Of a stretch of DNA of 25,078 nucleotides, positions 1,799 to 23,202 are shown in pieces. The stretch lies in the UHGV virus genome UHGV-1753993, one strand, 5' to 3'. Positions within the stretch are counted from its first letter, which is position 1. Every line of letters starts with the position of its first letter. The DNA comes from a virus. The notes beneath the pieces were generated by a model that saw only the letters and a program-made list of their open reading frames with translations, did no database searches and was not told the origin of the DNA. The position numbers and the translations under genes were made by a program.

Positions 1799-1883
1799 GA
1801 GCTGTTAAAAGTTTGTGAAAATGTTTACAAATTATTTATCAACTAAGTGCAAAATCTGTAAGTATATAGTTTTAATATACATC

Positions 1884-3951: not shown

Positions 3952-3975
3952 ATGTCTAAAATTGCCAAACAGCAC

Positions 3976-4559: not shown

Positions 4560-4594
4560 ATGCTATGTGTTTGAATATTGTAAGATATGTACAC

Positions 4595-5344: not shown

Positions 5345-5416
5345 AAATCAGTGCAAATTTGATAAATTTGTAGTACAATTATCATATATCAATATAGTAT
5401 ACAAACCTCTACAACA

Positions 5417-5728: not shown

Positions 5729-5750
5729 ACAACTCAAAATCTCTACAACA

Positions 5751-7918: not shown

Positions 7919-8079
7919 CAATGCAATCTTGCTGGTTAAGCCCATCAGGTCAAGTCACCTACTGTGACTTTGCTGAACATAGCAAAACTGCTGACATATT
8001 GTTGCAAAAGCTCAAACCAGAGTTGTTGACGCATACAATATGCCAGTTAGTCTTGCGCATGACCAGTTGCAGAACTTGA
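7915..8079 (+). CDS. Small ORF (54 aa), not in ORF track
   Basis: ATG overlaps the preceding stop (ATGA); fills an otherwise gene-free gap; found by manual translation. Confidence 0.3.
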   Translation: MTMQSCWLSPSGQVTYCDFAEHSKTADILLQKLKPELLTHTICQLVLRMTSCRT

Positions 8080-8186
8080 GCAATTATGCTACATTCGATA
8101 TTACAGCTGTGGAAGGCACTACGAAATGCACAAAGGCGCAACGTGAAGCAATGTTTGACTTGACAAGGCACTGGCATGAGCAATAA
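8040..8186 (+). CDS. Small ORF (48 aa), not in ORF track
   Basis: Manual translation; ends 15 nt before the next gene; overlaps the 7915-8079 ORF in another frame. Confidence 0.25.
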   Translation: MPVSLAHDQLQNLSNYATFDITAVEGTTKCTKAQREAMFDLTRHWHEQ

Positions 8187-8201
8187 GATACATTATCTGA
8201 T

Positions 8202-9553: not shown

Positions 9554-9572
9554 CAGTTGTAAGTTTATATGC

Positions 9573-10696: not shown

Positions 10697-10722
10697 GTGC
10701 AAATGATATTCGCATGTTGTAT

Positions 10723-10804
10723 CATATTCATATACAATATGAATATGCATGTTGCACAATACATATACAAATAACAAATAAACTTCTGAAGATTTTCTGA
10801 AGAG
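10723..10804 (+). promoter_or_regulatory. Upstream region of the SSB gene: hairpin (11-bp stem CATATTCATAT / ATATGAATATG, 10723-10747), TGTTGCACAAT motif (10750-10760), direct repeat TTCTGAAGA x2
   Basis: Read directly; function inferred from position only. Confidence 0.35.
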
Positions 10805-10847
10805 TTCATTTCAAACTTTTTGTTAAACTTTCTAAAATTTTATTGCG

Positions 10848-11981
10848 ATGTCACAAATTGAAAATGGACAGACCAGCAATCAGCCTCTGTCAATCTTTGA
10901 TGTCCAGCCGGACAATGTAGCAAGCTTTGCTAAGCCGGAACGTTCTGCAGGACCCGAGTTCTTTAATCCTAAGCCGCAGGATTCGCCAAAGGACAAAGTT
11001 TATCGTGCAGTTATTCGCGTATTGCCGAATTTAGCAGACCCAGCAGTACCGATTTCAATCGTTCGTTATTACTGGTTTGCAACTGGCCATAATCAGGGCT
11101 TCCGCTACAATTCGCCGAGCTCGCCTAATCCGCATCCTGAAAATCCGGAAAATTTGATGAAACCCTACGGTTGGTGTCCCATTTCGGCATTCTACTGGGA
11201 ACTCATCAATACCAAGGATGCTCAGCAGGAAGCACTTGCAAAGCGAGAGTTCAGTATGCAGAGTCAGTACACTTGCCTCGTGCAAATCAAGGCTGATTCA
11301 GTGCACCCTGAGAACGTTGGGAAAGTACTCCCATATCGACTCCCTGCTGCATTGTATAAAAGAATGCTGAGCTCAATGAAGCCGACTGACGAAGACATCC
11401 AGATGGGCGCTCAGCCTATGGACATGTTCCATCCTGTTAAGGGCCATGACATTCTCTTGAAGATTACGCTTAAAGACGTCAATGGCGTTGAAATGCGTGA
11501 CTACGAGACTTCGACGATTTCGCCCAACGTATCGTCGATGCTGCTTGCAGATGGCAGCCTTGTTGACCAGGCGAAGTATGACACTGACCCTGCATACAAG
11601 CAGCAAATCATGCAGCAGATTGTCGACATGCTCAAGGAGTACCCGAATGTCGAAAAGGAGTGGGGCTACCACGAAGCTTCTGATGACATCAAGCGTCAGG
11701 TTAAGATGCGCCTTGCTAACTACAAGGATGTGTCGGATATCTGGCCTGACATTGTCATCAATCCGTCAGCAGCTCAGCAGGCACAGACTACTCAGCCTGC
11801 ACCAGCAGCAGCTCCGGCAGCTGCGCCTGCTACTGCACCAGCAGCTCAGACAGCCATTGACCCGTTTGCAGCAGCTTCAGCACCTGCAGCAGAGCCTGTA
11901 CCTGCAGCAGCTCCAGCAGCAGCGCCTACAGCAGCAACGATGGATGCTGAAACTGAAGCATTCATCAATGGGCTCAAGTAG
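10848..11981 (+). CDS. T4 gp32-like single-stranded DNA-binding protein with a Pro/Ala-rich C-terminal linker
   Basis: Matches to T4 gp32 recalled from memory (AVIRVLPN vs AVIRFLPS; ENVGKVLPYR vs ENEGKVFKYR); distinct codon usage and higher GC than neighbours. Confidence 0.75.
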   Translation: MSQIENGQTSNQPLSIFDVQPDNVASFAKPERSAGPEFFNPKPQDSPKDKVYRAVIRVLPNLADPAVPISIVRYYWFATGHNQGFRYNSPSSPNPHPENPENLMKPYGWCPISAFYWELINTKDAQQEALAKREFSMQSQYTCLVQIKADSVHPENVGKVLPYRLPAALYKRMLSSMKPTDEDIQMGAQPMDMFHPVKGHDILLKITLKDVNGVEMRDYETSTISPNVSSMLLADGSLVDQAKYDTDPAYKQQIMQQIVDMLKEYPNVEKEWGYHEASDDIKRQVKMRLANYKDVSDIWPDIVINPSAAQQAQTTQPAPAAAPAAAPATAPAAQTAIDPFAAASAPAAEPVPAAAPAAAPTAATMDAETEAFINGLK

Positions 11982-12003
11982 CACAAGCGCATCAAAGATG
12001 CTC

Positions 12004-12041
12004 GAGGCTCAGACAGACATTGTTTGTCTGAGCCTCTTTTT
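12004..12041 (+). terminator. Intrinsic terminator: 12-bp stem GAGGCTCAGACA / TGTCTGAGCCTC, 9-nt loop, TTTTT
   Basis: Read directly; 23 nt after the SSB stop codon. Confidence 0.75.
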
Positions 12042-12059
12042 CATTTAACAAGTCATGTC

Positions 12060-13655
12060 ATGAGACTCAAAGTCATAGGCGATTTGCTTCAGATTGTCGA
12101 AGCAAATGATTTGGAAGCCAAGCAATTATACGCTGAAGCTACTGCAGAAGTGCCAAACTTTGTTGCAGCAGCAGTCAATAAGCGCAAAGGGCGCAAAACA
12201 GATTGGAATGGGCAAATTTGCTATGTGTTTAATGGCATATACCTACCATTTGGCTTATGGAAGCGTATTTGGGACTTACAACTGCGTAAGCCAATTCCAT
12301 ACGAAGTCAAGATTGAGGGCCTCATTGACAACTTTGACCGCATTGTGTCGCTTGAAGAGCTTGAGCAATGGTCAGAATGTCTTGATATGCCATTTGACAT
12401 GCGTGACGACCAGCTCAAGTTTATTTTGACTGCTTGCAAATTCAAGAAATGTTGTTTACGCCTTGCGACTTCTTATGGCAAAACAGCTCTTGTTTATGTA
12501 ATTAGTCGCTTCTTAAAAGATAGCAAGAGAATTAATGGCAAGACGCTTATGATTGTGCCCTCGGTGCATCTCGTGTCACAAGCGTTTGACGATATTGTTG
12601 TCAGCTATCAACAAAATGAGTCAGATTTAGCAAACAAGAACTACAAACTCTACAAAATCCATTCAGGTGTTCGCAATGAGTACAAAATGCAAGATGCAGA
12701 TATGGTTGTTGGCACGTATCAAAGTCTTGTCAACATGCCGGCAGATTTTTTCGAACAGTTTGACTTCATTGTAACTGATGAAGCTCATGGTGCGCCTGCA
12801 GCGTCAATTCGTGAAATCTTTAGTCATTGCACAAAAGCTCATTATCGTCTTGGCGTATCTGGTTCATTGCCGCTTGAACATACAGCAGCTCGTTTGACAA
12901 TTGAATCATACATTGGTCCAATACTGGGCACATTTGGCGTAGCTCAAGCACTTGAAAAGAACATTGTGTCTGACTTCGAAATCAAACGAGTAGTCATTGA
13001 GCATTCAGCAGAATATGATGCGCCGTTTGTGCAGTATCTTGAAGAGCATCCTGAAGTGTTTGATAACACTGCAAGACTGCTTCCAGCAGAACAACATCAT
13101 TGCATGAACTACGTCGATGCTAACAAGCTCATTGCAAAAATTATTTGTTCGCTTGACAAAAATGCTCTTGTGCTTTGCAAACGACGAGACCATGTGCAGA
13201 ACATCTATGATGCTTGTCAAACATTCATACAGCAGTCTGGTGTTGACAAGGTTGTTCACATCATTAGAGGTGATGTACCCTTGCATGAACGCAAAGACAT
13301 GCTTGCAATGATGGAAGCAGAGCCTGACAGACACATCATGATTGCAACAACTGGCACATTATCTACAGGTGTATCTGTGCATGCTTGGTTTTACGCTGCA
13401 TTCTTGATGATTGGCAAATCTGACAACGTAACATTGCAGTCAATTGGGCGACTGTTGCGTAAGCATCCACTTAAGCAGAAAGCAATCATTCTTGATATTG
13501 CGCATAAGCTTACAATTCATAGTGACACGCTTGTCAAGCTTCGCAAAGGCTACTGCTACTGCAATTATGATATGCAGCATTTTGCTGCTCGAAAACGAAT
13601 CTATGACGCTGAAAAGATGCCAGTAGATACAAATGTGCAAAAATTCAAGCTTTGA
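12060..13655 (+). CDS. uvsW: UvsW-like SF2 DNA helicase (Walker A TSYGKT, DEAH box VTDEAHG)
   Basis: Helicase motifs read directly; N-terminal W.G.I...LPFGL and later blocks (MIVPS..SQAFDDI, VVGTYQS, LGVSGSL, QSIGRLLRKH) match T4 UvsW as recalled; start re-set from track TTG 12024 to ATG 12060. Confidence 0.8.
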   Translation: MRLKVIGDLLQIVEANDLEAKQLYAEATAEVPNFVAAAVNKRKGRKTDWNGQICYVFNGIYLPFGLWKRIWDLQLRKPIPYEVKIEGLIDNFDRIVSLEELEQWSECLDMPFDMRDDQLKFILTACKFKKCCLRLATSYGKTALVYVISRFLKDSKRINGKTLMIVPSVHLVSQAFDDIVVSYQQNESDLANKNYKLYKIHSGVRNEYKMQDADMVVGTYQSLVNMPADFFEQFDFIVTDEAHGAPAASIREIFSHCTKAHYRLGVSGSLPLEHTAARLTIESYIGPILGTFGVAQALEKNIVSDFEIKRVVIEHSAEYDAPFVQYLEEHPEVFDNTARLLPAEQHHCMNYVDANKLIAKIICSLDKNALVLCKRRDHVQNIYDACQTFIQQSGVDKVVHIIRGDVPLHERKDMLAMMEAEPDRHIMIATTGTLSTGVSVHAWFYAAFLMIGKSDNVTLQSIGRLLRKHPLKQKAIILDIAHKLTIHSDTLVKLRKGYCYCNYDMQHFAARKRIYDAEKMPVDTNVQKFKL

Positions 13656-13796
13656 TATTGTGCAAAAGTTGATGCTACGTAGTACATTAATCATATAACA
13701 AAAAACAATATGCAACCATACACTTCTACTGAAATCAAAGCAATGTTGCGGCCTATAGTATAGCAGCGAGACCTCAAAGGTGTATTTGACACTTAT

Positions 13797-14150
13797 TTGC
13801 TTGTCACAAAGCGAATTCAAGCTGCAGCAAATGCAACACAACAGCCTGCAACAAAAGTTGATTTTGACAGAGCGTCAAATCAGTTTGGCTTAGCATTGAC
13901 TGAGCTGTACAAAGAGCAGGGCATCAAAGCAGTAGATTTCGTAGAACTTGATATCTATAAGCGCATCTTTGCAGCACAAATTGCAAAAGCAATGCGTGCT
14001 GAAGATGTTGACATAGTCAAGTCTGCAAAGAAGCTTGAGCGCATCATGCAGTATGACCTTAAAAAGCTCATCAACGTCAAAGACAAGAACATCAGCAAAG
14101 GCACTGCAAGATTGCTTGAAGCTGTTCTTGCTGCAGAAGATGATGAGTAA
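13797..14150 (+). CDS. Hypothetical protein; no canonical ATG near the 5' end (track start is TTG)
   Basis: Open frame 13764-14150; an in-frame ATG at 13710 is separated from it by a single TAG at 13761-13763. Confidence 0.4.
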   Translation: MLVTKRIQAAANATQQPATKVDFDRASNQFGLALTELYKEQGIKAVDFVELDIYKRIFAAQIAKAMRAEDVDIVKSAKKLERIMQYDLKKLINVKDKNISKGTARLLEAVLAAEDDE

Positions 14151-14194
14151 TGCAAATATACATATATTGTCAACAAACAAACATAAAAAAAGAT

Positions 14195-14512
14195 ATGCTG
14201 CAACTCAAACATAAAGCCGAAATGGCTCGAGCACTTGCAAACAATCCACTCGTTGTAGTGAAGTTCAGTGCGCCATGGTGTGTGCCGTGTCAAGGTTATG
14301 CGCCAATTTTCGAGTCAACTGAAAAGAAATTCAATGGCAAGGTGACATTTGCTGAAGTGAATGTTGAAGAGTGCGATGAACTTGATAGCACTCACAATGT
14401 TCGTTCAGTACCAACGACAATTATCTTTCGTGATTGCATTGAAGTTGGCCGTGCAACTGGTGCATTGTCAGCTATTGCACTTGAACAACTGATTGTCGAC
14501 AATATGCAATAA
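14195..14512 (+). CDS. Thioredoxin
   Basis: Active site WCVPC, cis-Pro loop VPT, about 105 aa; start re-set to ATG 14195 (track start 14150 lies in an AT-rich leader). Confidence 0.85.
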   Translation: MLQLKHKAEMARALANNPLVVVKFSAPWCVPCQGYAPIFESTEKKFNGKVTFAEVNVEECDELDSTHNVRSVPTTIIFRDCIEVGRATGALSAIALEQLIVDNMQ

Positions 14513-14536
14513 CACACTACAAGCAGTTCATACGCT

Positions 14537-14971
14537 ATGGGCAAGTCGATATTTGACAATGAATGGCTATCTACGGAACTTGAGCGGTTTGAAATCAAAT
14601 ACGACAAGCTTTCAATCAATGACGACACTGTAGTAGCATCAGCAACATCTACAATAGAACAGTTTTTGCAAAAGTCTTCGTATCACAGGTACATTAGAAT
14701 AAGACTTCGCAAATACAAGTTCATTGAGCCAACAAAGTACAATGAGTGCATCGCAAAATGTGCCGCGTTAACAAAAAGCGCTTTGCAGCTTATCAATGTG
14801 TTTGATGCAATCAACACATACTATGAGCTTGACACAAAGCTTTGTTGGGACCAGTTGTCATACACAAACAAGCTCATCATAGCTAAAGACATGCTTGAAT
14901 CACAGGGTAATGACGCTTTGCTAAAATTTGTTATGCAGCAAAAAGCAGCTAATGACATGCTTGACCAATGA
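14537..14971 (+). CDS. Hypothetical protein (144 aa)
   Basis: Track ORF with ATG start. Confidence 0.6.
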   Translation: MGKSIFDNEWLSTELERFEIKYDKLSINDDTVVASATSTIEQFLQKSSYHRYIRIRLRKYKFIEPTKYNECIAKCAALTKSALQLINVFDAINTYYELDTKLCWDQLSYTNKLIIAKDMLESQGNDALLKFVMQQKAANDMLDQ

Positions 14972-15966
14972 AAGATTCACTGAACAGAGGCTCAGCTGAG
15001 CTGAAATCAGCTCAAGCTGCAATTAAACAGCAAGTCAATGCAAAAGACGTGACATTTCAGCACTTCTTTCGTAATGCATTTATTGGACTGCTGTCTGATT
15101 TGTATGCTCGTCTGAATATGCCGACATACATGCTGAGCACTGGTGACCAACGATATTGGTCGGGCGAACTTGTTGGCAAAGGCTCAAGTCCAGTTGGCAA
15201 TACACCAACAAATTCACTTGAAAATGCATTTGTTGACGCGAAAAACTTTGTTCAAACTGTGCCAAGATGCGTTGTTGAAATAGAGTCGCCTCGAATCAAC
15301 AAACAAGCGCTTGGCATGCAAGATACACAGATTCGTCTGATTGCTACAATTGACAGTGTACCTGTCGCATTGTATAGCACAATGAGACGAATACCAGTAG
15401 ATTTTGCTGTCAATGTGCAAGTATTTTCAACAGATTGGTTAACTGCGCTTGAGACTTACGAGTATTTGCTTAGCAAGCTGTATCAGTTGAATATGTATGG
15501 TTTTGTCTGGGCAGGTACCATGCATGGTGCATCATATGAATTCGATGTGTCTTCTATGGATGCTCAGCATGCAATTGTGCATGGCAAAGAAGACATTGAC
15601 ACAGTCATTAAGCTGCCATTGACACTGCACTTACAATATCCTGCAATCAATTCTGGTGATAACATTTGGGCTGGCGATGACATCATCACAGACTACGAGC
15701 ACAACATTGATATTGATAGTGATGATTCTGCACTTGACTTGAACATCACTTTTGGTGGCAACTATGATGAAGCCAGAATATCATTGCCAAGCAAATCAGG
15801 TTCGGCTAATGCAGGCTCTGCAATGTCTGACAGTAGACTCATAAGCATTGTCGGTTCATCTGGCAATGTTGGTCAAGCTGCTGGTAGTGGCAGCAATGCA
15901 AATCTTGCAAGCGTATCAGATGGCAATACAGGTTGTCAGAATGGCGCATGTCATCTTGAACATTGA
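14968..15966 (+). CDS. Hypothetical protein with Gly/Ser-rich C-terminus (332 aa)
   Basis: Track ORF; ATGA overlap with the upstream gene. Confidence 0.65.
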   Translation: MKDSLNRGSAELKSAQAAIKQQVNAKDVTFQHFFRNAFIGLLSDLYARLNMPTYMLSTGDQRYWSGELVGKGSSPVGNTPTNSLENAFVDAKNFVQTVPRCVVEIESPRINKQALGMQDTQIRLIATIDSVPVALYSTMRRIPVDFAVNVQVFSTDWLTALETYEYLLSKLYQLNMYGFVWAGTMHGASYEFDVSSMDAQHAIVHGKEDIDTVIKLPLTLHLQYPAINSGDNIWAGDDIITDYEHNIDIDSDDSALDLNITFGGNYDEARISLPSKSGSANAGSAMSDSRLISIVGSSGNVGQAAGSGSNANLASVSDGNTGCQNGACHLEH

Positions 15967-16514
15967 TGCGTATGAAATATAACACCATCCTCAACAATAT
16001 CAAATTGGCTTTATGGCCATTTGGTGTCATTCGACGTCTAAACAAGCTTGATGCAGAAGCTAACAAGTGGCATCAATATTTGCTTGACTATCTGAATGAC
16101 CCTGAACATGAGTACTTTTTGACATTTTTGAAGAACAGCGGCTTTGCATTGTTCAATGAGCAGCGATGCTTCATTGTGCATACTCAGCTTCCTGCAGAAG
16201 TCATTGCAACAATACAAGGTACAGAATTTGAAGCACTTGACTCAGTTGCAATTGTTGAGCACATCATGCATGAACGCATGGAACCAGTCTTCAATCAACT
16301 TGTGCAAAACAATCTGCTTGATGTCGTAACACTTCGACATAACTACACTGGCAATGGCATCATTAGAACAGTGATGTCAAATGTTGCTGAACTCGAATAT
16401 CTTGCATATGCAGAAGAACAGCCTTTACGATTGTTAAGATGTTCTGCTGCAATATGGAAGATTCTGTTAAGTGCATTGTGCTTAGCAGCATTAGCATTAG
16501 CAATCATCTCATAA
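15966..16514 (+). CDS. Hypothetical protein with hydrophobic C-terminal tail
   Basis: Track ORF 15963-16514 starts at TTG; ATG at 15966 overlaps the upstream stop (TGATG). Confidence 0.55.
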   Translation: MRMKYNTILNNIKLALWPFGVIRRLNKLDAEANKWHQYLLDYLNDPEHEYFLTFLKNSGFALFNEQRCFIVHTQLPAEVIATIQGTEFEALDSVAIVEHIMHERMEPVFNQLVQNNLLDVVTLRHNYTGNGIIRTVMSNVAELEYLAYAEEQPLRLLRCSAAIWKILLSALCLAALALAIIS

Positions 16515-16528
16515 CACAATTTATTCGT

Positions 16529-17074
16529 ATGGCAAAGAAAAATGCTGTTGCAGCAAAGCCTGCAACTGAACTCAAAGACATGACAATGGAGCAGCTGGAA
16601 GCACTCAAAAAGTCGCTCAGTGAAGCTCGAAAAGAACTCGAAGACAAATCGCAGTCAATGCAGATGATTGTCACGACTGATGGCGAATTGCTCAAGTTTG
16701 TTGCACGTAATGTGTGCGAACTTGTTTTGCCGCAACTTGAGTTTGATATGCGACTTATGCGTGATGTTGTCGCATTTGCTGCATGGGCTACGGACGCTGC
16801 AAAAGGACGACGCACCATGGGCATCTTCGAGTTCAAGTACATTGTTCGTGCTGTATCGACGACGAAGTTCAAGGGCGCTCAGGTTGCTGCAGCACTTGAT
16901 TCACTCAACAATCTGCTTGAGGCACCTGCAGCAGAAGTACAGAAGTTCGATGAGCAGTATCGTGAAAACGCCACTGCACTTGACGCATGCTTGCAGGAAA
17001 TTGACAAGCGCAAGCAAGCTGAGCTAGCTGAAAAGACTGCTGAAGCTGAATCGCAGGAAGCAGACGCAAACTAA
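16529..17074 (+). CDS. Hypothetical helical, acidic protein with G/C-ending codon usage
   Basis: Track ORF 16439-17074 re-set to ATG 16529 (MAKKNAVAAKPA); followed by a strong terminator. Confidence 0.6.
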   Translation: MAKKNAVAAKPATELKDMTMEQLEALKKSLSEARKELEDKSQSMQMIVTTDGELLKFVARNVCELVLPQLEFDMRLMRDVVAFAAWATDAAKGRRTMGIFEFKYIVRAVSTTKFKGAQVAAALDSLNNLLEAPAAEVQKFDEQYRENATALDACLQEIDKRKQAELAEKTAEAESQEADAN

Positions 17075-17119
17075 AATGACATTGACATAGTGTCATTGAT
17101 TTTAAGGGTTAGTAAAGTG

Positions 17120-17151
17120 CAAGCAGGCTGCAATTGCAGCCTGCTTGTTTT
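17120..17151 (+). terminator. Intrinsic terminator: 28-nt perfect palindrome CAAGCAGGCTGCAATTGCAGCCTGCTTG followed by TTTT
   Basis: Read directly. Confidence 0.75.
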
Positions 17152-17275
17152 GTGTACAATGACGATATTTTTAGCAACACAAAGTGCAAGTACGCACTTT
17201 ATGTTGTACAATGATGATATTTTAACAACATATGTTGTGCAAAAGCTCAATACATGTTGTACAATATATTCATAT
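17151..17275 (+). promoter_or_regulatory. Repeated 30-bp elements containing TGT(T)GTACAAT (17151-17180, 17203-17232, partial 17255-17275) upstream of gene 17295
   Basis: Direct repeats read directly; motif core TTGTACAA is palindromic; function inferred. Confidence 0.4.
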
Positions 17276-17294
17276 ATGATAAAACAATACGAAT

Positions 17295-18677
17295 ATGCAC
17301 AATGATTTGATTATAGCGCAATTAAATGCTTTGCAGCAGCAATATGAAATTGTGTTTGATGTTGATTGCATTGCATGGCTTCGAAACAGATGCTCAACAT
17401 TTATAGGCATTCCACTGCCATATAATGATTACGTTATTTGTGTGCATCCAATTGTGCGACAAACTGTCGTAGTTGACATAACAAATGCAACTGAACACGA
17501 GCTATTTGAATTGGAAGAGTACATTGCAATGATTCATGCATTGTTGCAATCATATGCACGACATCTGCATTCACAACGATGCAACACGGAGTTTGCTGCA
17601 GTAGATGCGCCCTATTCTGCAAAAACACATTTTGTGCCTGTAATACTTAAGCCTGCATATCCTGTACGAACACAAGACAAACCACGACAAGATAAGACAG
17701 ACATTCAAAGTAGAGAATGCTTTGCAATTGCTCGCATCATTGATGCAACAAAGCAGCATCAATACAAGGCGCATCTTATTGTAGATGATGCAGAAGTGCA
17801 TGACCCAAAACTTTTCGACAAAGATGTGCTATGCTGCTCAGTTGACTATGTGCAGCACTCAATTGACAAATATGGTGTGTTGTACATTGTATGCTCAGCA
17901 ATGAATGACTCGATGAGTCAGTCAGTCATCTACAAACAGCACAAGCAACTCATTGAATCATGGAAGGGCGACATTGTATGGCTATGGTATGATTTACGAC
18001 TCGTGCCGCACATTGCAAACTTTAGATTGCGCTGCAAAAAGATGACAGTTGTCACACAAGCACAGAACATGCATAATGCGTTGTCAATGCTGACAGAAAT
18101 CAATGTCAACACAATTCAGCATGCAAGACTGGAAGGCATTCCATTGTATGCATCACATAACGAAAAACGTTTAGCAAAATTGCAATCAGGCAAGTTGACT
18201 ACTGCAATGCCGATGGTTGCTTGGAATGACATGTGTGCTGAACGCAAACAAGAAGTCATTGATTTGCTTGGCTGCGCAGACATCGAAACTCATGTTGTCG
18301 GCAATATCGACATTGATATGCCACATGTCTATGATGGCACAATCAAGTATTTTGACATATTAACATACTTGTCGCAGTTCGACTTTGCATACATTGTGTG
18401 TGAAGAGAATATGAAACAATGCAACGCAATTACATTCAGAGCAACTGAATCAATGCTTGCAGGCTTGCCTTGTATGTACGTGAATAATTGTGTGTGTCCT
18501 GACTTTATCAAGTATCATAAAGTCGCACACATCAAAAATGCCAAGCATTGTGCAGAAGTCTTCAAGTCATTAAGTGTAGATGAACTTGATGAGCTTATGA
18601 CATTACAAGACAACTATCTCATTGAGTTGCATACAAACATTGTAACAGACTTTATCAAAATTATAAACTCACTGTAA
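17295..18677 (+). CDS. Hypothetical protein (460 aa); C-terminal region weakly resembles the GT-B glycosyltransferase nucleotide-sugar-binding motif
   Basis: Track ORF with ATG start; motif ..FRATESMLAGLPCMYV.. by eye only. Confidence 0.6.
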   Translation: MHNDLIIAQLNALQQQYEIVFDVDCIAWLRNRCSTFIGIPLPYNDYVICVHPIVRQTVVVDITNATEHELFELEEYIAMIHALLQSYARHLHSQRCNTEFAAVDAPYSAKTHFVPVILKPAYPVRTQDKPRQDKTDIQSRECFAIARIIDATKQHQYKAHLIVDDAEVHDPKLFDKDVLCCSVDYVQHSIDKYGVLYIVCSAMNDSMSQSVIYKQHKQLIESWKGDIVWLWYDLRLVPHIANFRLRCKKMTVVTQAQNMHNALSMLTEINVNTIQHARLEGIPLYASHNEKRLAKLQSGKLTTAMPMVAWNDMCAERKQEVIDLLGCADIETHVVGNIDIDMPHVYDGTIKYFDILTYLSQFDFAYIVCEENMKQCNAITFRATESMLAGLPCMYVNNCVCPDFIKYHKVAHIKNAKHCAEVFKSLSVDELDELMTLQDNYLIELHTNIVTDFIKIINSL

Positions 18678-18681
18678 GCAT

Positions 18682-19407
18682 ATGAAATGGCTAACTTGGT
18701 CTGAAACAAAGCGGTTTCAACGAAATCTCATATATCTTAAAATGGCTGAGCTTTGGTCATTAAATTCACATGCTCAGCGAGCAAAAGTTGGCGCATTGCT
18801 TGTAAAAGATGGTTGCATAATTTCAGATGGCTATAATGGCATGCCAACTGGTATGTCAAATTGTTGCGAACATGATACTTCAGCAGGCATCAAAACCAAC
18901 AAAGAAGTTTTGCATGCAGAATCAAACGCATTGATGAAGCTGTGCAAATATGGCAATGCGACCGCAAATGACGCAGTGCTGTATGTAACATACAGTCCAT
19001 GCATTGATTGCGCAAAGCTTATTTTGCAAGCAGGCGTTAAGCAAGTGCATTTTGTTGACTTGTATCATCACATAGATGGCTTGCGACTACTTAGTAGTGC
19101 TGGCATTGAGTTATATTGGTACCCAAGAAGCGCAGCAGATTATGAGGTTGCATGCAATCAAGTAGACTTTGATGATGCATTTCTTGCAAAGTGTGTCAAT
19201 ATCGTAGCAGTTAGTGACAATGTAGATGACATTGTGCATTGCAATTATGTGATATGCAATCTTGACGCAGCATTGTCATATGAGAAGATGCCAATGTATG
19301 ACACGTCATATGGTGTCATTGCAAATCACATCATAGATGAAGTACAATATCAACATGTAATAGATAATTGCAAAGCATATGAGCAAACTCTTCATTTTGA
19401 AATTTGA
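18682..19407 (+). CDS. dCMP deaminase-like (zinc-dependent cytidine/deoxycytidylate deaminase fold)
   Basis: Signature HAESNAL ... PCIDCAKLI read directly. Confidence 0.7.
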   Translation: MKWLTWSETKRFQRNLIYLKMAELWSLNSHAQRAKVGALLVKDGCIISDGYNGMPTGMSNCCEHDTSAGIKTNKEVLHAESNALMKLCKYGNATANDAVLYVTYSPCIDCAKLILQAGVKQVHFVDLYHHIDGLRLLSSAGIELYWYPRSAADYEVACNQVDFDDAFLAKCVNIVAVSDNVDDIVHCNYVICNLDAALSYEKMPMYDTSYGVIANHIIDEVQYQHVIDNCKAYEQTLHFEI

Positions 19408-20542
19408 CACATGTGTGCGTTCAGACATACAGCATCTTAAACATACAGAACCCATCGCATTTGCAGGGTTTGTGCAGACAATGTTTGATGCTGTGTATGT
19501 GTTTGGTGACCCTGAGAACAAACATGCAATACTTGATGAGCTTGTGCATGATAACGTGCATATCATCAATAACATACATGCATGGCAAGATATGCTGAAG
19601 TGCACAAAATCAGACGATTGCGCAATATTCTGGCAGGGCTCAAAGGCTGCTCTTGAACATTGCTCAGAATTTCAGCAAGATGTTCTGTGGAATGCATTCA
19701 AAGCATGGTGTTTGTCAAATGCTCGCAAATTTACGCTAACAACTGATTTGCGATTTGATTTTGACAAAGAGTGCACATTGACAAAGCGATTGCACAACTA
19801 CAAAGAGTACTTAGAATCACAAAAAGACAACATTACACATCTGTGTCAACATAAAAATCTCAAGTATGCTTGGCTTGATGAGTCTCAATGTGTGTTTGCA
19901 CCATTGCAAATCATTGCAGCAGTCAATGCATTGAAGCTTCAATATATAGAGCCAAGATTGCTTAAACGACAAGCAACAATGCAAAATGCAATTGAAGCTC
20001 ATGTGCGTAGCTTTGCTGACATAAAGCAGCAATATGCATGCTGTGCAAGTTGTGCAGGTTTCACATATCTTGACGAGTATCGTAGAAGCGTGATTGAACA
20101 ATTTGTCATACATATGCGTGATACATGTCTCATAACATCGTATATTGATGACACAATTTTGTCTGCGGTTAAATCAGCAGCACCAAACTTTACACTTAAA
20201 TACAAAGTCGCATATGACGCAATGCCTCATGTAATATCGAGGTCCGCGTACAATCTTGTAGTTGGTGATTCATTGTATGTGCAAGCAGGCTTGCTGCCAA
20301 ATCGATGGGTTGAAGGCGTACTTGCAAATTGCTGCAACATACTTGTAGATTATAAGCCAATTACCCTATTTGCTGACATTGTAGGCTTCGATGACTACGC
20401 GACATTTGCAACACTTAATAGCAAAACATGCGTACGCACTGCGCCCACAAATTTTGATGATTGCAAACAAGCACAGCAAAAAGCTCTTGCAGCAATGATT
20501 GTGCAGTGTTACACTATTCTTGAACAAACATTCAAATCATGA
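19379..20542 (+). CDS. Hypothetical protein (387 aa)
   Basis: Track ORF with ATG start; overlaps the upstream gene by 29 nt. Confidence 0.6.
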   Translation: MSKLFILKFDTCVRSDIQHLKHTEPIAFAGFVQTMFDAVYVFGDPENKHAILDELVHDNVHIINNIHAWQDMLKCTKSDDCAIFWQGSKAALEHCSEFQQDVLWNAFKAWCLSNARKFTLTTDLRFDFDKECTLTKRLHNYKEYLESQKDNITHLCQHKNLKYAWLDESQCVFAPLQIIAAVNALKLQYIEPRLLKRQATMQNAIEAHVRSFADIKQQYACCASCAGFTYLDEYRRSVIEQFVIHMRDTCLITSYIDDTILSAVKSAAPNFTLKYKVAYDAMPHVISRSAYNLVVGDSLYVQAGLLPNRWVEGVLANCCNILVDYKPITLFADIVGFDDYATFATLNSKTCVRTAPTNFDDCKQAQQKALAAMIVQCYTILEQTFKS

Positions 20543-22095
20543 GAACACATATAATTACTCAAACTGGCTACATAGACTTTTTCAATTCATTGACTTGGAA
20601 AAGTGCAGCAATGTTTGAACGAGCAAACAAAGATGACTTATTCATTGTGGTAGGCTTTGTGCCACAGATGAAAGATGTCGCAGATTGCTTGACTACATCA
20701 GGTCATCATGTCAAATATGTTGATGTGTCAGATTTTGCTCAATGTCGCATTGCTGACATTATGAAGCGTCTTGATATGTCAATGACATCTTGCAATATGA
20801 GCTACATTGCAACATTTAATATATTCAATGGCGCATGCAATTCATTTCAGCAGGCAGAACTTGATACATTTTCTGCATATTGCAAGACATTTGGTACTGC
20901 ATCAGTCAAACGTGATTTGCCGCTAATTGACGCAGCAGGCTCAGTCTACAAAGCACTCATGTATGTAGTGTATGAGATGCTGTCAGTCATTATGCAGTAC
21001 AATATTGCATTGAATGCTCGCAAGACTAATGACAAACAACAAGGCACAGTCATAAACAACTTTGTCGAAGACCCATTGCAGCACAAGCTCAATTACATTG
21101 ACTATCGCTATTCAGGACCATATGAAAGCGCATTTAGTGCATCAAAGATATTCAAAGTGCAACATTGGTACTTTCATGATTGCAATAATGTCAAAAAGCT
21201 TGGTCTTGAATACAATTCTGCATATGTATATGATGTTACAGCAGAACAAGATGCTATTGCATATTATGGATGGTGTCCATCACAGCAATACTGGTATTTG
21301 CATGGCAAAACTTGGAATGATATTGAAGTAACATTCGATGACAAGCGACTGAATTTTGTATTTGCATTGACAAATACTTGGCGAGACAAAACTGAACGCA
21401 CAGAACTCATCAACAAACTCATGCATCTGCACAATCAAGATGCAATTGACAAGGGTATTGTGTTCAGATTTTTCAGCAGAGATAAACAACAGCAGTCAAT
21501 GTCAGACAAGTTGCTGCCATATGACACATACCTTGAACTCATCAAGCATAGCAGATTCACATTGATTGTGCCGTCATATGATGCAAACTGTTTTAGTTTG
21601 CGTAGATTCTGTGAAAGCATTGTGCTTGGCTGTGTTCCACTTGTGCACAACTCATGCAAACTCTATATGTTTGACAGATGGCCACAGTTCAAACAGTTTG
21701 TCATTAAGAAGCTCATGATTAGCGATGATGACTTGCAGCATCTTGAAGACATTGTTCAGCCATATAGACATACACAATTGTTAAAAGAGTTGTGGCACAC
21801 TGATTTCATTCAGCAATATACGGGTGACTTTGTGTATGATATTGCATTGCATCTTGCATATATCAATAAAGATGTGCCAATCAAGAAGTCTTGTGACAAT
21901 TGCGACAATACACTTTCACATGAGCGCTGTGTAATTTGTGAAGCAAACAACTTTATGAGTCATGCATGGTCATGTTCATATTGCAAGTTCTGCAAGTCTG
22001 ATATGTCATGCGCACTTGATGCAGACGATGGCTCAGCCGCATGTTGCAATGGTGACAGCTTTGTGTTGAAAGAGCCATTCGTAGAAGTGCAATGA
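20539..22095 (+). CDS. Putative glycosyltransferase (exostosin/GT47-like motif) with Cys-rich C-terminal tail
   Basis: Motif YDTYLELIKHSRFTLIVPSYDANCFSLRRFCESIVLGCVPLV resembles the F[CT]LxP.G...R..E.L..GC[IV]P signature; C-terminal CDNCDN..CVIC..CSYCKFC cluster; ATGA overlap at start. Confidence 0.6.
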   Translation: MRTHIITQTGYIDFFNSLTWKSAAMFERANKDDLFIVVGFVPQMKDVADCLTTSGHHVKYVDVSDFAQCRIADIMKRLDMSMTSCNMSYIATFNIFNGACNSFQQAELDTFSAYCKTFGTASVKRDLPLIDAAGSVYKALMYVVYEMLSVIMQYNIALNARKTNDKQQGTVINNFVEDPLQHKLNYIDYRYSGPYESAFSASKIFKVQHWYFHDCNNVKKLGLEYNSAYVYDVTAEQDAIAYYGWCPSQQYWYLHGKTWNDIEVTFDDKRLNFVFALTNTWRDKTERTELINKLMHLHNQDAIDKGIVFRFFSRDKQQQSMSDKLLPYDTYLELIKHSRFTLIVPSYDANCFSLRRFCESIVLGCVPLVHNSCKLYMFDRWPQFKQFVIKKLMISDDDLQHLEDIVQPYRHTQLLKELWHTDFIQQYTGDFVYDIALHLAYINKDVPIKKSCDNCDNTLSHERCVICEANNFMSHAWSCSYCKFCKSDMSCALDADDGSAACCNGDSFVLKEPFVEVQ

Positions 22096-22140
22096 GCATA
22101 ACTACGTTGTACTGTAATCAAAAATCAAACATAATACACA

Positions 22141-22713
22141 ATGATAGCGATATTTGAAGGTGTAGAAGCTTCAGGCAAAACAACACTCATCAATGAATTG
22201 ATGAAGTGGCGCCCATGGTTTATCAATTGCAAACGAACATCTCGTTCTTGGTGGCAGCAGCATGAGTCAGGTGATGACCCAATGCCCGAACCTTGGGACC
22301 TCAATGAAGCGTTCTTTTATGATTGGCGCTTCTTCTTAGAGTTCATTGGAAATGACTCTCAAGGCTTTGGCAAAGCAACATTTTTGTGTGACCGTTCGTT
22401 CATCACACATCAAATCTTCAACACAACGCTTTACAAAGAGTTGCACACTGATAAGCATCAAGCATTCTTTGAAGCATATGAAAAGAAGCTTGCAACATTG
22501 CCGCACGTAGTGTTCTTATGCAAGCGTGATGTTGTGCCAGATTTTGTTGATAACTTTTGCGGTGATGTCAACATTGATGTCAGCAAACGCAATGAAATGA
22601 TTGCTGCATATGATGAGTGGCGAAAGAACTCACCATTGCATATTGTCGAAATCGACAACAATGCAAGTCTGCAAGACAATGTGCTAAAATGCTTAGCTGA
22701 ACTTGGTGCATGA
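22141..22713 (+). CDS. P-loop nucleoside-monophosphate kinase, thymidylate-kinase-like
   Basis: Walker A EGVEASGKTT at the N-terminus and a DRS motif (LCDRSF) by eye. Confidence 0.6.
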   Translation: MIAIFEGVEASGKTTLINELMKWRPWFINCKRTSRSWWQQHESGDDPMPEPWDLNEAFFYDWRFFLEFIGNDSQGFGKATFLCDRSFITHQIFNTTLYKELHTDKHQAFFEAYEKKLATLPHVVFLCKRDVVPDFVDNFCGDVNIDVSKRNEMIAAYDEWRKNSPLHIVEIDNNASLQDNVLKCLAELGA

Positions 22714-22925
22714 GTAGAGTAACACCACAGCAATTACAAATGATGACAGACAAGCATGTCGCGTCATCAGTCATATTGCATACAATTGAATCTGCGTTAG
22801 CTTGCGACATCAAAGCAAAACTCGTAGATATCTTGAAGCTTAACAATGTCGAAGCGTATCTTATTGAAGACATTATAGATGAATGCTTTGACAAAGATTT
22901 GATTGCCTCAGACTGTGCAAAATGA
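22710..22925 (+). CDS. Small acidic hypothetical protein (71 aa)
   Basis: Track ORF; ATGA overlap with the upstream gene. Confidence 0.5.
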   Translation: MSRVTPQQLQMMTDKHVASSVILHTIESALACDIKAKLVDILKLNNVEAYLIEDIIDECFDKDLIASDCAK

Positions 22926-22932
22926 CAATGTA

Positions 22933-22943
22933 TGTTGTACAAT
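22933..22943 (+). promoter_or_regulatory. TGTTGTACAAT motif copy
   Basis: Exact 11-mer identical to 17202-17212 and 17255-17265. Confidence 0.35.
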
Positions 22944-22998
22944 ATCAACATATAAAATCCATCCTTTATCCAAGCTTTACAAAGCAAGAAACCTGCCA

Positions 22999-23050
22999 GA
23001 TGGCTGCTGCACATGATTTCACAAAATGTAGCAGCAGCCATCATTTTTTT
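22999..23050 (+). terminator. Intrinsic terminator: 12-bp stem GATGGCTGCTGC / GCAGCAGCCATC with T7 tail
   Basis: Read directly. Confidence 0.6.
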
Positions 23051-23058
23051 GACTCAAG

Positions 23059-23196
23059 ATGAGACGAGACAAGTACCATAAGCTTAACATACCTGATAAG
23101 TGGAATACTGAATCAGATTACACTGCATCAATAGTCATATATGCAATTATGGCTGCACTTGCAGTAGCATTTGCTTTGTGTGTAGATATGATATAA
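23059..23196 (+). CDS. Small single-pass membrane protein (45 aa), not in ORF track
   Basis: Manual translation MRRDKYHKLNIPDKWNTESDYTASIVIYAIMAALAVAFALCVDMI; follows a terminator. Confidence 0.3.
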   Translation: MRRDKYHKLNIPDKWNTESDYTASIVIYAIMAALAVAFALCVDMI

Positions 23197-23202
23197 CGTT
23201 AT

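What the first reader, a model, noticed from the sequence alone, without database searches (positions are those of the whole stretch)
17151..17275. Recurring palindrome-containing motif TGTTGTACAAT in intergenic regions
Exact 11-mer at 17202-17212, 17255-17265 and 22933-22943, with close variants at 17151-17160, 5369-5379 (upstream of 5417), 10750-10760 (upstream of the SSB gene), 22107-22120 (upstream of the kinase gene) and inside coding sequence at 4456-4465. The core TTGTACAA is a perfect palindrome, which suggests a dimeric DNA-binding regulator or a phage-specific promoter element. Two 30-bp copies are arranged in tandem upstream of gene 17295.
Basis: seen in the sequence. Interest (0 to 1): 0.5.

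Follow-up and report, generated by a model that had tools for sequence, protein, structure and literature searches.

The report
Phage promoter family, not a palindromic operator
The recurring TGTTGTACAAT is the -10 end of a 29-bp two-part promoter, (G/A/T)TGCAA-17 bp-TACAAT, that an uncultured T4-like phage from the human gut places in front of its DNA-replication and other pre-replicative genes; it is an ordinary kind of element with a new consensus.

Summary
The exact 11-mer occurs 3 times against 0.09 expected. But it is only half of the motif. Every good copy has GTGCAA exactly 17 bp upstream of TACAAT. GTGCAA-N17-TAnnnT occurs 8 times against 0.88 expected, always on the + strand.

A matrix trained on sites outside the window finds 8 window hits against 0.06 expected. 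In 88 kb sampled from a 175-kb relative (~95% DNA identity) there are 24 sites, all on one strand. They sit directly upstream of the SSB, topoisomerase II, DNA polymerase, tRNA and gp55-like late-sigma genes. The capsid/sheath block has none.

Relatives with 53-74% SSB identity keep nTGCAA-N17-TAnAAT in intergenic DNA. Indels between close relatives always restore the 17-bp spacing.

The palindrome TTGTACAA is present in only 13 of 24 sites and is probably a by-product. The best reading is a lineage-specific sigma-dependent early/middle promoter, often placed after a terminator, like the PeSL cassettes of T4-like phages.

The factor that reads it is unknown. The host may be Bacteroidota (no Shine-Dalgarno sequences, nearest relatives), and their promoters look different. 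That is the one potentially novel angle.

The parts
17119..17148 (+). Intrinsic terminator hairpin ending the upstream operon (13-bp stem, T-run), immediately before the promoter cluster
   Evidence: Terminator scan. A compensatory G-C to A-T change in the stem is seen in the two ~95% DNA identity relatives.
17150..17160 (+). Partial promoter copy (P0): TTGTGTACAAT, a -10 region with no nTGCAA box 17 bp upstream. Probably a degraded or duplicated half-promoter.
   Evidence: Sequence. The positions 17 bp upstream read AATTGC, inside the terminator. The 3' flank GACGATATTTTTAGCAACA parallels the flank of P1, which indicates slippage duplication.
17184..17212 (+). Promoter P1: GTGCAA (-35, 17184-17189), 17-bp spacer, TACAAT (-10, 17207-17212). 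Contains the 11-mer at 17202-17212.
   Evidence: 24.8 bits with the independent matrix. All substitutions in the relatives fall in the spacer or flanks, none in the boxes.
17237..17265 (+). Promoter P2: GTGCAA-N17-TACAAT followed by ATATTCATATA (likely start region), 30 nt before the ATG at 17295.
   Evidence: 30.6 bits. Identical in both relatives.
5351..5379 (+). Promoter heading the long + strand run of small genes that starts at 5417. It sits back to back with the upstream region of the minus-strand gene ending at 5296.
   Evidence: 30.5 bits. The ortholog in 152288 keeps both boxes with a changed spacer (L137 position 529).
10697..10725 (+). Promoter of the gp32-like SSB gene (10848-11981): GTGCAA-N17-TATCAT, starting right after the stop codon of the upstream gene.
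   Evidence: 30.0 bits. Relatives with 58-97% SSB identity carry a site at the same place: GTGCAA/TTGCAA-N17-TACAAT/TAATAT/TAAAAT.
10732..10760 (+). Second, weaker copy in the same intergenic region: ATACAA-N17-CACAAT.
   Evidence: 16.2 bits. Absent from relative 152288, which has a single promoter here.
13660..13688 (+). Promoter after the helicase gene: GTGCAA-N17-TACATT. A leftover GTGCAA lies at 13635-13640.
   Evidence: 22.7 bits. A 26-bp indel relative to 149023 restores a GTGCAA exactly 17 bp from the same TACATT.
22087..22115 (+). Possible weak promoter before the P-loop kinase gene (22141): GTGCAA-N17-TACTGT. The -35 box lies in the last codons of the upstream gene.
   Evidence: Fits the pattern but scores only 2.6 bits. 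Identical in the relatives, so there is no conservation test.
22915..22943 (+). Promoter GTGCAA-N17-TACAAT with the downstream cassette ATATCAACATATAA, which recurs elsewhere in the genome.
   Evidence: 30.4 bits. The relatives carry a 30-47-bp insertion (30 bp in 149023, 47 bp in 152288) that puts an ATGCAA 17 bp from the same TACAAT. The same cassette is found at four other places in the 175-kb relative.
22999..23050 (+). Strong hairpin plus U7 about 55 nt downstream of the 22915 promoter. It is a terminator or attenuator, implying a ~100-nt RNA or regulated read-through into the gene at 23059.
   Evidence: Fold energy -30.1 kcal/mol, z = -5.5. Fully conserved in the relatives. No Rfam family matches.
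1847..1875 (+). Degenerate copy: an intact GTGCAAAA box with a decayed -10, followed directly by a bidirectional terminator.
   Evidence: 16.4 bits. A closely similar copy (paralog or ortholog) elsewhere in the 175-kb relative is intact: GTGCAAAATCTGCAAGTGTGTAGTATTAT, 36.7 bits.

Best explanation
The 11-mer is the -17 to -7 segment of a sigma-dependent bipartite promoter with this consensus: (G/A/T)TGCAAA (-35 to -29), 10 variable bases, (a/t)TGT(T/A)G (-17 to -13), TACAAT (-12 to -7), then 3-5 bases and (C)ATATA (probable start region).

The phage is an uncultured, distantly T4-like myovirus of about 175 kb from human faecal metagenomes. It uses this promoter for its pre-replicative (early and/or middle) genes: small early ORFs, SSB, topoisomerase II, DNA polymerase, a tRNA cluster, a nucleotide/DNA-modification cluster, and the gene for its gp55-like late sigma factor.

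Inferred mechanism: an RNA polymerase holoenzyme carrying a sigma70-family factor contacts TAnnnT through sigma region 2. Either sigma region 4 or a phage factor that replaces its specificity contacts the TGCAA box 17 bp upstream. The invariant G at -13 and the TGT at -17 to -15 add upstream contacts, as an extended -10 does.

Upstream of gene 17295, two full promoters and one half copy follow a terminator. Transcription ending at 17148 is therefore restarted strongly for the modification-gene cluster.

The promoters behave as repeated cassettes. They duplicate, slip and recombine, as described for the promoter-early stem-loop (PeSL) elements of T4-like phages.

Shown: motif, spacing, strand, position, conservation and gene-class specificity. 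Inferred: that it is transcribed from, where the start site lies, and which factor reads it.
For: 1. Enrichment. GTGCAA-N17-TAnnnT occurs 8 times against 0.88 expected, all on the + strand. A matrix trained only on six sites from other genome regions gives 8 window hits above 15 bits against 0.06 in shuffles, again all on the + strand.

2. Geometry. The spacer is exactly 17 bp in every site. TGCAA, G-13, T-12, A-11 and T-7 are invariant in 24 of 24 sites.

3. Position and direction. The sites lie in intergenic DNA, or start at the stop codon of the upstream gene, 26-125 nt before the next start codon. There are 24 sites in 88,167 bp of the 175-kb relative, all on the coding strand.

4. Footprinting. 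Among the ~95% DNA identity relatives, substitutions fall in spacers and flanks and not in the boxes. Indels of 26-47 bp always leave an nTGCAA 17 bp from the -10. Relatives with 53-74% SSB identity keep GTGCAA/ATGCAA/TTGCAA/ATGTAA-N17-TACAAT/TAATAT/TATAAT in intergenic regions.

5. Gene class. Directly downstream lie the gp55-like late sigma factor, two topoisomerase II subunits, the DNA polymerase C-terminal part and a homing endonuclease, six tRNAs and the SSB. The 7.1-kb block with sheath, prohead protease and major head protein has no hit above 12 bits.

6. Terminator-promoter arrangement. It is seen at 17119-17265, with compensatory stem changes, and at the orthologous place in a 60%-identity relative.

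7. Precedent. T4-like phages have lineage-specific early consensus sequences with N17 spacing (TTGACA..TATAAT, TTTACW..TAYWAT, TTGYVH..TAWWAT). Degraded or duplicated copies are attributed to recombinational slippage (PMC4122927).
Against: - There is no transcript 5'-end data, so promoter activity is inferred.
- The -35 box matches TTGACA at only 3 of 6 positions. The generic sigma70 scan therefore did not list any of these sites, and canonical sigma70-like sites are not enriched in the scanned region 8000-25078 (45 against 44.7 expected).
- The upstream TGTTG is not a canonical extended -10. The G bases are at -16 and -13, not -14.
- If the host is a Bacteroidota, its housekeeping sigma prefers TTTG/TAnnTTTG (PMC6847099). 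These sites lack that, so 'read by unmodified host polymerase' is uncertain.
- The invariance of TGCAA is partly imposed by how the sites were collected, that is by pattern or matrix.
- Conservation within the 8-bp palindrome is roughly symmetric, so an additional protein binding over the -10 is not excluded.
Confidence: 0.85

Rival explanations
1. Activator- or phage-sigma-dependent 'middle' promoter. The TGCAAA box is not read by the host sigma. It is read either by a phage-encoded specificity factor, functionally like T4 MotA/AsiA sigma appropriation, or by a phage sigma. That factor retargets the host polymerase to an E. coli-like -10 that the host, possibly a Bacteroidota, would not normally use. 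This is a sub-variant of the promoter reading and differs only in who recognises the site.
For: - The genes served (late sigma, topoisomerase II, polymerase, SSB, tRNAs) are of the replication and nucleotide-metabolism kind that, from my recollection of the T4 literature (not tested here), T4 expresses at least partly in middle mode.
- TGCAA is invariant in 24 of 24 sites, stricter than usual for a -35.
- No gene has a Shine-Dalgarno sequence. The nearest cultured relatives infect Chryseobacterium (30-37% identity, gp32-helicase synteny). The source is human faeces. Together these suggest a Bacteroidota host.
- The Bacteroidota -7 box TAHHTTTG is at chance level in this phage's intergenic DNA (0.78 per kb), against 4.08 per kb in Chryseobacterium phage MA9V-1.
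- 8 of 24 sites carry an inverted TGCAAA...TTTGCA pair.
Against: - No MotA, AsiA or sigma70-family domain was found among about 100 proteins scanned, covering roughly half the genome. PDB sequence searches of five unknown window proteins found nothing.
- The box differs from the T4 MotA box (TGCTT, centred at -30) in both sequence and position.
- The same promoter also heads the run of small ORFs that look like immediate-early genes (5351). A factor-dependent promoter there would need an earlier promoter class, and none was seen in the 88 kb sampled.
- The host identity is only inferred. Both bacterial-genome scans found nothing.
Confidence: 0.3
2. Palindromic operator. TTGTACAA is bound by a dimeric phage or host regulator, for example a repressor that shuts off early genes. 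The recurrence would reflect regulator sites rather than promoters.
For: - The core is a perfect 8-bp palindrome, enriched 4 against 1.04 expected.
- Conservation across the two halves is roughly symmetric: 22/18/24/24 against 24/18/19/23 of 24 sites.
- It overlaps the -10, a classical operator position.
Against: - 11 of 24 sites lack the palindrome yet keep G-13, T-12, A-11 and T-7.
- The symmetry stops at 8 bp: G-16 opposes T-7.
- The element is directional, with TGCAA on one side only at a fixed 17 bp and 24 of 24 sites on one strand. A symmetric operator does not require that.
- The right half is explained by a -10 hexamer.
- The one palindrome copy without the -35 partner (4457-4464) lies inside a gene on the other strand.
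Confidence: 0.07
3. The repeats are conserved mainly as recombination substrates (mobile promoter-terminator cassettes that shuffle genes), or as replication or packaging signals, with transcription secondary.
For: - Cassette-like copies share flanks beyond the promoter. TACAATATCAACATATAA occurs at five places, and TATCAAAAnnGTGCAAA-N4-TTTTGCATGTTGTACAAT-(T/A)ATATAGGAA at two.
- Tandem duplication and half copies occur at 17150-17265 and 13635-13688.
- Indels between close relatives sit at promoters.
- PeSLs are proposed to mediate such shuffling (PMC4122927).
Against: - Recombination alone does not explain exact maintenance of the 17-bp spacing after indels.
- It does not explain invariance of only the positions a sigma factor contacts while spacers diverge by up to 9 of 17 bases.
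- It does not explain strand and gene-class specificity.
- At least one large indel nearby (about 0.8 kb at window position ~6552) is not bounded by a promoter.
Confidence: 0.08

Closest known systems
PeSL (promoter-early stem-loop) cassettes and early promoters of T4-like myoviruses (Arbiol et al. 2010; Comeau et al. 2014, PMC4122927)
   Same: - A stem-loop/terminator sits directly upstream of a -35/N17/-10 promoter.
- Many near-identical copies per genome, with a lineage-specific consensus.
- Degraded half copies and mis-spaced duplicates are attributed to slippage.
- Copies are associated with indels between close relatives.
- The genome background is T4-like: gp23, sheath, gp32, topoisomerase II, gp55-like protein.
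   Different: - The -35 consensus is nTGCAA(A), not TTGACA, TTTACW or TTGYVH.
- There is an invariant G at -13 with TGT at -17 to -15.
- No Shine-Dalgarno sequence follows, whereas PeSLs end with one.
- Only some copies are preceded by a stem-loop.
- The phage is very distant from Tequatrovirus-type phages (25-37% identity for core proteins), and its host is probably not a proteobacterium.
T4 middle promoters (MotA box (a/t)(a/t)(a/t)TGCTTtA centred at -30, plus a sigma70 -10, read after AsiA/MotA sigma appropriation)
   Same: - A good TAnnnT -10 is combined with a non-canonical, very strictly conserved upstream box containing TGC.
- It is located in front of replication, recombination and nucleotide-metabolism genes, tRNAs and the late-sigma gene.
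   Different: - The box sequence is TGCAA rather than TGCTT. It sits about 3 bp further upstream, at the classical -35 position with a 17-bp spacer.
- No MotA or AsiA homolog was detected in the ~100 proteins scanned.
- The same promoter also heads presumptive immediate-early small ORFs.
Bacteroidota housekeeping promoter (sigma-ABfr: -33 TTTG / -7 TAnnTTTG; PMC6847099)
   Same: - T-12 and A-11 start the downstream element.
- The overall spacing between the upstream TG and the downstream TA (20 nt) is compatible.
- The phage, like Bacteroidota, lacks Shine-Dalgarno sequences.
   Different: - The nearly invariant T-8, T-6 and G-5 of the host element are A, A/T and T/A here.
- TAHHTTTG is at chance frequency in this phage's intergenic DNA but about five times denser in Chryseobacterium phage MA9V-1.
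- MA9V-1 intergenic regions do not carry the nTGCAA-N17-TAnnnT motif.
Extended -10 (TGnTATAAT) and Gram-positive '-16 region' (TRTGnTATAAT) promoters
   Same: A conserved T/G-rich block lies immediately upstream of the -10 hexamer. T-17, G-16 and T-15 match the TRT of TRTG.
   Different: The G is at -13, abutting the hexamer, instead of -14. A strongly conserved -35-position box is also present, whereas extended -10 promoters typically dispense with one.

Membership tests
Sigma70-family bipartite promoter | -10 hexamer of the form TAnnnT, with A at -11 and T at -7 | tested here: met
   24 of 24 sites have T-12, A-11 and T-7. 17 of 24 are TACAAT.
Sigma70-family bipartite promoter | Second element 16-18 bp upstream of the -10 | tested here: met
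   The spacer is exactly 17 bp in all sites, and it is restored after indels.
Sigma70-family bipartite promoter | -35 hexamer resembling TTGACA | tested here: inconclusive
   GTGCAA matches 3 of 6 positions and TTGCAA matches 4 of 6. The T and G at the second and third positions are invariant. The standard scan, which needs 4 of 6, did not list these sites.
Sigma70-family bipartite promoter | Intergenic, co-directional with and upstream of genes | tested here: met
   All window sites are on the + strand, ahead of + strand genes. 24 of 24 sites are on the coding strand in 88 kb of the relative.
Sigma70-family bipartite promoter | Transcription starts 5-9 nt downstream of the -10 | not testable with these tools
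   No transcript data are available. A conserved (C)ATATA lies 3-5 nt after the -10.
PeSL cassette of T4-like phages | Stem-loop immediately upstream of an early promoter | tested here: inconclusive
   Present at 17119-17148 and at orthologous or other sites in two relatives. Absent at 5351, 10697, 13660 and 22915.
PeSL cassette of T4-like phages | Shine-Dalgarno sequence and start codon at the 3' end of the cassette | tested here: not met
   No AGGAG-like sequence precedes any of the 29 genes examined.
PeSL cassette of T4-like phages | Association with indels and degraded copies between close relatives | tested here: met
   Indels lie at three promoters. Half copies lie at 17150, 13635 and 1847.
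T4 MotA-dependent middle promoter | MotA box TGCTT(t/c)A centred at about -30, 11-13 bp from the -10 | tested here: not met
   The box is TGCAA(A) at -34 to -29, 16-17 bp from the -10.
T4 MotA-dependent middle promoter | The phage encodes MotA and AsiA | tested here: inconclusive
   There are no Pfam or PHROG hits to MotA, AsiA or sigma70 domains among about 100 proteins. Only about half of the genome was sampled.
Bacteroidota sigma-ABfr promoter | -7 element TAnnTTTG (T-8, T-7, T-6 and G-5 nearly invariant) | tested here: not met
   The sites read TACAAT(A/T)(T/A). TAnnTTTG occurs 20 times against 25 expected in the window, and at 0.78 per kb in intergenic DNA against 4.08 per kb in MA9V-1.
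Palindromic operator for a dimeric regulator | Dyad symmetry conserved across sites | tested here: not met
   TTGTACAA is intact in only 13 of 24 sites. The symmetry does not extend beyond 8 bp.
Palindromic operator for a dimeric regulator | Binding of a regulator protein | not testable with these tools
   This needs EMSA or footprinting.

The most novel reading that the evidence does not exclude
The host of this gut phage lineage is a Bacteroidota, whose housekeeping polymerase reads TTTG/TAnnTTTG and does not express E. coli-type promoters. The phage nevertheless drives all its pre-replicative genes from nTGCAAA-N17-TACAAT sites. It would then have to supply its own promoter-specificity factor. 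That could be a new sigma, or a MotA/AsiA-like appropriation system with no detectable sequence similarity. The factor would be either injected or made from a still unseen host-type promoter. The invariant TGCAAA box, sometimes doubled as an inverted repeat, would be its binding site.
Probability: 0.3. Interest if true: 0.7.

Novelty: new member of a known kind. Interest (0 to 1): 0.38.

Why it matters
The result gives a usable promoter model for an uncultured lineage of ~175-kb T4-like phages from the human gut: nTGCAAA-N10-TGTTG-TACAAT-N3-5-ATATA.

- It lets one delimit the transcription units of this lineage and separate pre-replicative from late genes without culture.
- Generic sigma70 predictors miss these sites.
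- The sites mark recombination-prone junctions between close relatives.
- If the host proves to be a Bacteroidota, the mismatch with the host promoter type would point to an undiscovered phage transcription-takeover factor. It would also offer orthogonal promoter parts for Bacteroides engineering.

As it stands, this is an ordinary type of element with a new consensus.

Tried and rejected
- Megablast of 5 kb against cultured phages found no match. tblastn of the 460-aa protein and of a 1068-aa protein also found nothing.
In the strict 17-base scan, five of the thirteen hits were one unrelated conserved sequence in other contigs.
- Sigma54 reading (TGGCAC-N5-TTGCA): rejected. There is no GG, the spacing is wrong, and a -10 is present.
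- T4 late promoter TATAAATA: 0 matches in the window.
- Bacteroidota TAnnTTTG: not enriched.
- MA9V-1, the nearest cultured relative, does not share the motif.
- Host identification through bacterial genomes failed twice.
- Literature searches for GTGCAA promoters and for the sample accessions gave nothing relevant.
- PDB sequence searches of five unknown window proteins for MotA, AsiA or sigma-like relatives found nothing.
- Rfam found no family in the window.
- A divergent promoter using the reverse complement of GTGCAA was checked at 5297-5360 and at one palindromic site in the relative. No properly spaced -10 was found.

Full report
**1. Observation**

TGTTGTACAAT occurs exactly at 17202, 17255 and 22933, all on the + strand: 3 matches against 0.09 expected. 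The 8-bp palindrome TTGTACAA occurs 4 times against 1.04 expected.

Allowing two mismatches gives 31 hits against 23 expected. So 'close variants' cannot be recognised by similarity to the 11-mer alone.

**2. What the motif really is**

Reading the flanks shows that each good copy has GTGCAA upstream, separated from TACAAT by exactly 17 bp. The pattern GTGCAA-N17-TAnnnT has 8 matches against 0.88 expected, all on the + strand.

- Seven lie at gene boundaries: 5351, 10697, 13660, 17184, 17237, 22087 and 22915.
- One, at 20043, lies inside a gene with a poor context and is probably chance.

To avoid circularity I trained a 39-column matrix only on six sites from other parts of a related genome.

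- It finds 8 window hits above 15 bits (shuffles give 0.06), all on the + strand.
- The six strongest, at 22.7-30.6 bits, are exactly the intergenic sites.

The copy inside coding DNA at 4455-4465 has no partner box and lies in a minus-strand gene. The copy at 17150-17160 is a -10-only fragment abutting the terminator at 17119-17148.

Downstream of the -10 most sites have (C)ATATA after 3-5 nt. This is the likely start region.

**3. Where the window comes from**

The window is an ENA metagenome contig of 24.9 kb. Two IMG/VR contigs of 174.6 and 175.6 kb are about 95% identical in DNA. A paper that cites the same IMG dataset describes it as co-assembled from human faecal samples.

About 100 proteins were scanned across the window and the sampled parts of the 175-kb relative.

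- Found: a gp32-like SSB, a DEAD-box helicase, topoisomerase II subunits, a family-B polymerase split by homing endonucleases, RNR, dNMP kinase, polynucleotide kinase, a gp23-type major head protein, tail sheath, a DNA end protector, and a gp55-like late sigma factor.
- Conclusion: this is a distant T4-like myovirus.
- Nearest cultured phages: Chryseobacterium phages MA9V-1 and MA9V-2, at 30% (gp32) and 37% (topoisomerase II) identity, with gp32-helicase synteny. Next come uncultured megaphages, a Xanthomonas jumbo phage and Prevotella Lak phages.

**4. Genome-wide behaviour**

I stitched together 88,167 bp (50%) of contig 149023. The matrix finds 24 sites above 20 bits between 23 and 140 kb, all on the same strand, which is the coding strand.

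| Position | Bases in the 24 sites |
|---|---|
| -35 | G 17, A 4, T 3 |
| -34 to -30 (TGCAA) | 24/24 |
| -29 | A 21 |
| -17 | T 21 |
| -16 | G 23 |
| -15 | T 22 |
| -14 | T 18 |
| -13 | G 24 |
| -12, -11 | T 24, A 24 |
| -10 | C 18 |
| -9 | A 19 |
| -8 | A 23 |
| -7 | T 24 |

Only 13 of 24 sites contain TTGTACAA, and only 11 contain the exact 11-mer.

Genes immediately behind sites include:
- the gp55-like late sigma factor and two topoisomerase II subunits
- the C-terminal polymerase part and a homing endonuclease
- a six-tRNA cluster
- the SSB, and the cluster at 17295-22713: an unknown protein, dCMP deaminase, another unknown protein, a GT47-like protein and a P-loop kinase

The 7.1-kb block with tail sheath, prohead protease and major head protein has no hit above 12 bits. 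So the motif marks pre-replicative genes and not late ones.

**5. Evolutionary evidence**

*Close relatives.*
- At P1 and P2 every substitution lies in a spacer or flank. None lies in the boxes. The preceding terminator shows a compensatory G-C to A-T change.
- At 13660 a 26-bp indel creates a new GTGCAA exactly 17 bp from the same TACATT. The single-promoter relative has 9 different spacer bases but identical boxes.
- At 22915 the relatives have a 30-47-bp insertion that places ATGCAA 17 bp from the same TACAAT.

*Distant relatives.* Contigs whose SSB is 53-74% identical carry the following sites in intergenic DNA, several of them just after terminators:
- GTGCAA-N17-TAATAT (twice)
- GTGCAA-N17-TACAAT
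- GTGCAA-N17-TATTTT
- ATGCAA-N17-TATAAT
- TTGCAA-N17-TAAAAT
- ATGTAA-N17-TACAAT

Selection therefore acts on two boxes and on their spacing, which is the signature of a sigma-dependent promoter.

**6. Mechanism**

The most likely mechanism is a sigma70-family holoenzyme promoter. TACAAT is one base from TATAAT and keeps A-11 and T-7. The TGCAA box occupies the -35 position.

The block TGT(T/A)G directly upstream of the hexamer probably adds contacts, as an extended -10 does. However, its G bases are at -16 and -13 rather than -14.

Upstream of 17295 the arrangement is a terminator, then a half copy, then P1, then P2, with a 53-bp period. This restarts transcription for the modification-gene cluster.

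The promoter at 22915 is followed after about 55 nt by a conserved hairpin with a U7 run (-30.1 kcal/mol, z = -5.5). That suggests a ~100-nt RNA or an attenuated leader.

**7. Comparison with known systems**

The closest published analogue is the PeSL of T4-like phages.
- These are stem-loop plus early-promoter cassettes with lineage-specific -35/N17/-10 consensus sequences.
- They have degraded or duplicated copies and are associated with indels (PMC4122927).
- This element behaves the same way, but it has a new consensus and lacks the Shine-Dalgarno part.

It resembles T4 middle promoters in the genes it serves and in having a strict non-canonical upstream box. But the box sequence and position differ, and no MotA or AsiA homolog was found.

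It does not fit the Bacteroidota TTTG/TAnnTTTG promoter (PMC6847099). MA9V-1 does not share it.

**8. The palindrome**

The right half of TTGTACAA is the start of the -10 hexamer, and the left half is the upstream block. Eleven of 24 sites break the palindrome without losing any promoter-critical base.

The whole element is asymmetric and strand-specific. I therefore regard the palindrome as incidental.

Conservation is roughly symmetric within the 8 bp, so a regulator binding over the -10 cannot be excluded.

A different dyad appears in the -35/spacer region of 8 of 24 sites: TGCAAA...TTTGCA, for example GTGCAAATTTGCAC. My rough estimate of the chance expectation is well under one site in 24. 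The spacing between its arms varies, and several of these sites are clearly paralogous cassettes, so its meaning is open.

**9. Who reads it**

Unknown.
- None of 29 genes has a Shine-Dalgarno sequence. That, the nearest relatives and the faecal origin suggest a Bacteroidota host.
- In such a host these promoters would not match the housekeeping sigma.
- Canonical sigma70-like sites are not enriched in the scanned region 8000-25078.
- No phage sigma70, MotA or AsiA homolog was found in about half of the genome.
- Two attempts to tie the phage to bacterial genomes failed.

Hence the main claim, a promoter family, carries high confidence. The identity of the recognising factor is the open, and potentially interesting, part.

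**10. Verdict**

- It is a new member of a known kind.
- Interest is moderate to low. It would rise if the host proves to be a Bacteroidota.

Noticed in passing
window 2669-2833: A tandem array of 28/34-bp units, GTTTTGATGCAAGATGCAAAAC plus a spacer, lies in a divergent intergenic region upstream of a tail-fibre-like gene (3035). Each unit has inverted GTTTTG/CAAAAC ends and two ATGCAA copies, the same hexamer used as the -35 box in some promoters. The unit's core 16-mer occurs 5 times in the window, 2 times in 149023 and 3 times in 152288. It could be iterons or an origin, or a cluster of binding sites.
   Followed up: partly
window 87-217 (+), 1708-1798 (-), 4509-4567 (-), 5248-5345 (-): Four paralogous genes have near-identical 5' ends (MKTTQLWFERQQSIAGG...). 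Two of them (87-217 and 5248-5345) also share an identical 36-bp upstream block, TGATATATAATATGTCAATAAATTTCACATACAAAA. Each ORF has a G7-G10 homopolymer about 15 codons in, and there are further runs at 2616-2627 and 2919-2926. These could reflect phase variation, frameshifting or recombination hot spots. Similar AT-rich blocks (ATATGATATATAACATG, TATACATATTATACAG) precede a 429-aa structural-block gene and the major head gene in the relative, so this may be the late (gp55-type) promoter.
   Followed up: partly
window 913-2743: This ~1.8-kb segment carries three minus-strand genes. It is absent from contig 149023, and its ends lie near the repeated gene-start blocks, suggesting recombination between paralog 5' ends.
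   Followed up: partly
window 10780-10815: The SSB leader contains the repeated motif CTTCTGAAG...TTCTGAAGAG, conserved in relatives down to 58% SSB identity while the surrounding leader diverges. It is a candidate translational operator for gp32-type autoregulation.
   Followed up: no
window 5403-5419 and 5737-5753; also L140 13358 and 20120, L139 2040: The recurrent leader (A)ACCTCTAC(A/T)ACAATG ends in the start codon of genes just behind promoters. It is present only in loci of this phage among the 141 loci held. ACCUC has the same sense as the anti-Shine-Dalgarno sequence, not its complement.
   Followed up: partly
window 17295-22713: A gene cluster encodes an unknown 460-aa protein, dCMP deaminase, an unknown 387-aa protein, a GT47-like glycosyltransferase (518 aa) and a P-loop (thymidylate-kinase-like) kinase. 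It may be a DNA base hypermodification module. The 460-aa protein has no homolog among cultured phages.
   Followed up: no
window 1889-1925 and 3975-4010: Two related bidirectional terminators share the core CTCCACTGAGA-TTC-(T)CAGTGGAG. The first, at 1889-1925, has A-runs and T-runs on both sides.
   Followed up: no
L020 1283-1400: Six tandem 19-bp repeats (GTTGAACCAGTTTGCTTA-) lie directly after the SSB gene of a 56%-identity relative, ahead of a terminator-promoter pair.
   Followed up: no
L135 (Chryseobacterium phage MA9V-1, record positions 38-57 kb): MA9V-1 intergenic regions share a ~70-bp block: (T/A)TGCAAA..TTTTTGC(C/T)AAAAT(A/G)TTTTC..TGTC...TA(T/A)ATTT(G/A). It contains a Bacteroidota-type -7 box and an upstream dyad. 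A second motif, TTTGTGTAT(A)T(A)AT, follows terminators.
   Followed up: partly
L138 4761-11080 (contig 149023, about 83.4-89.7 kb): The family-B DNA polymerase appears split into an N-terminal part (501 aa) and a C-terminal part (430 aa), separated by a homing-endonuclease-like gene and small ORFs. The C-terminal part has its own promoter.
   Followed up: no
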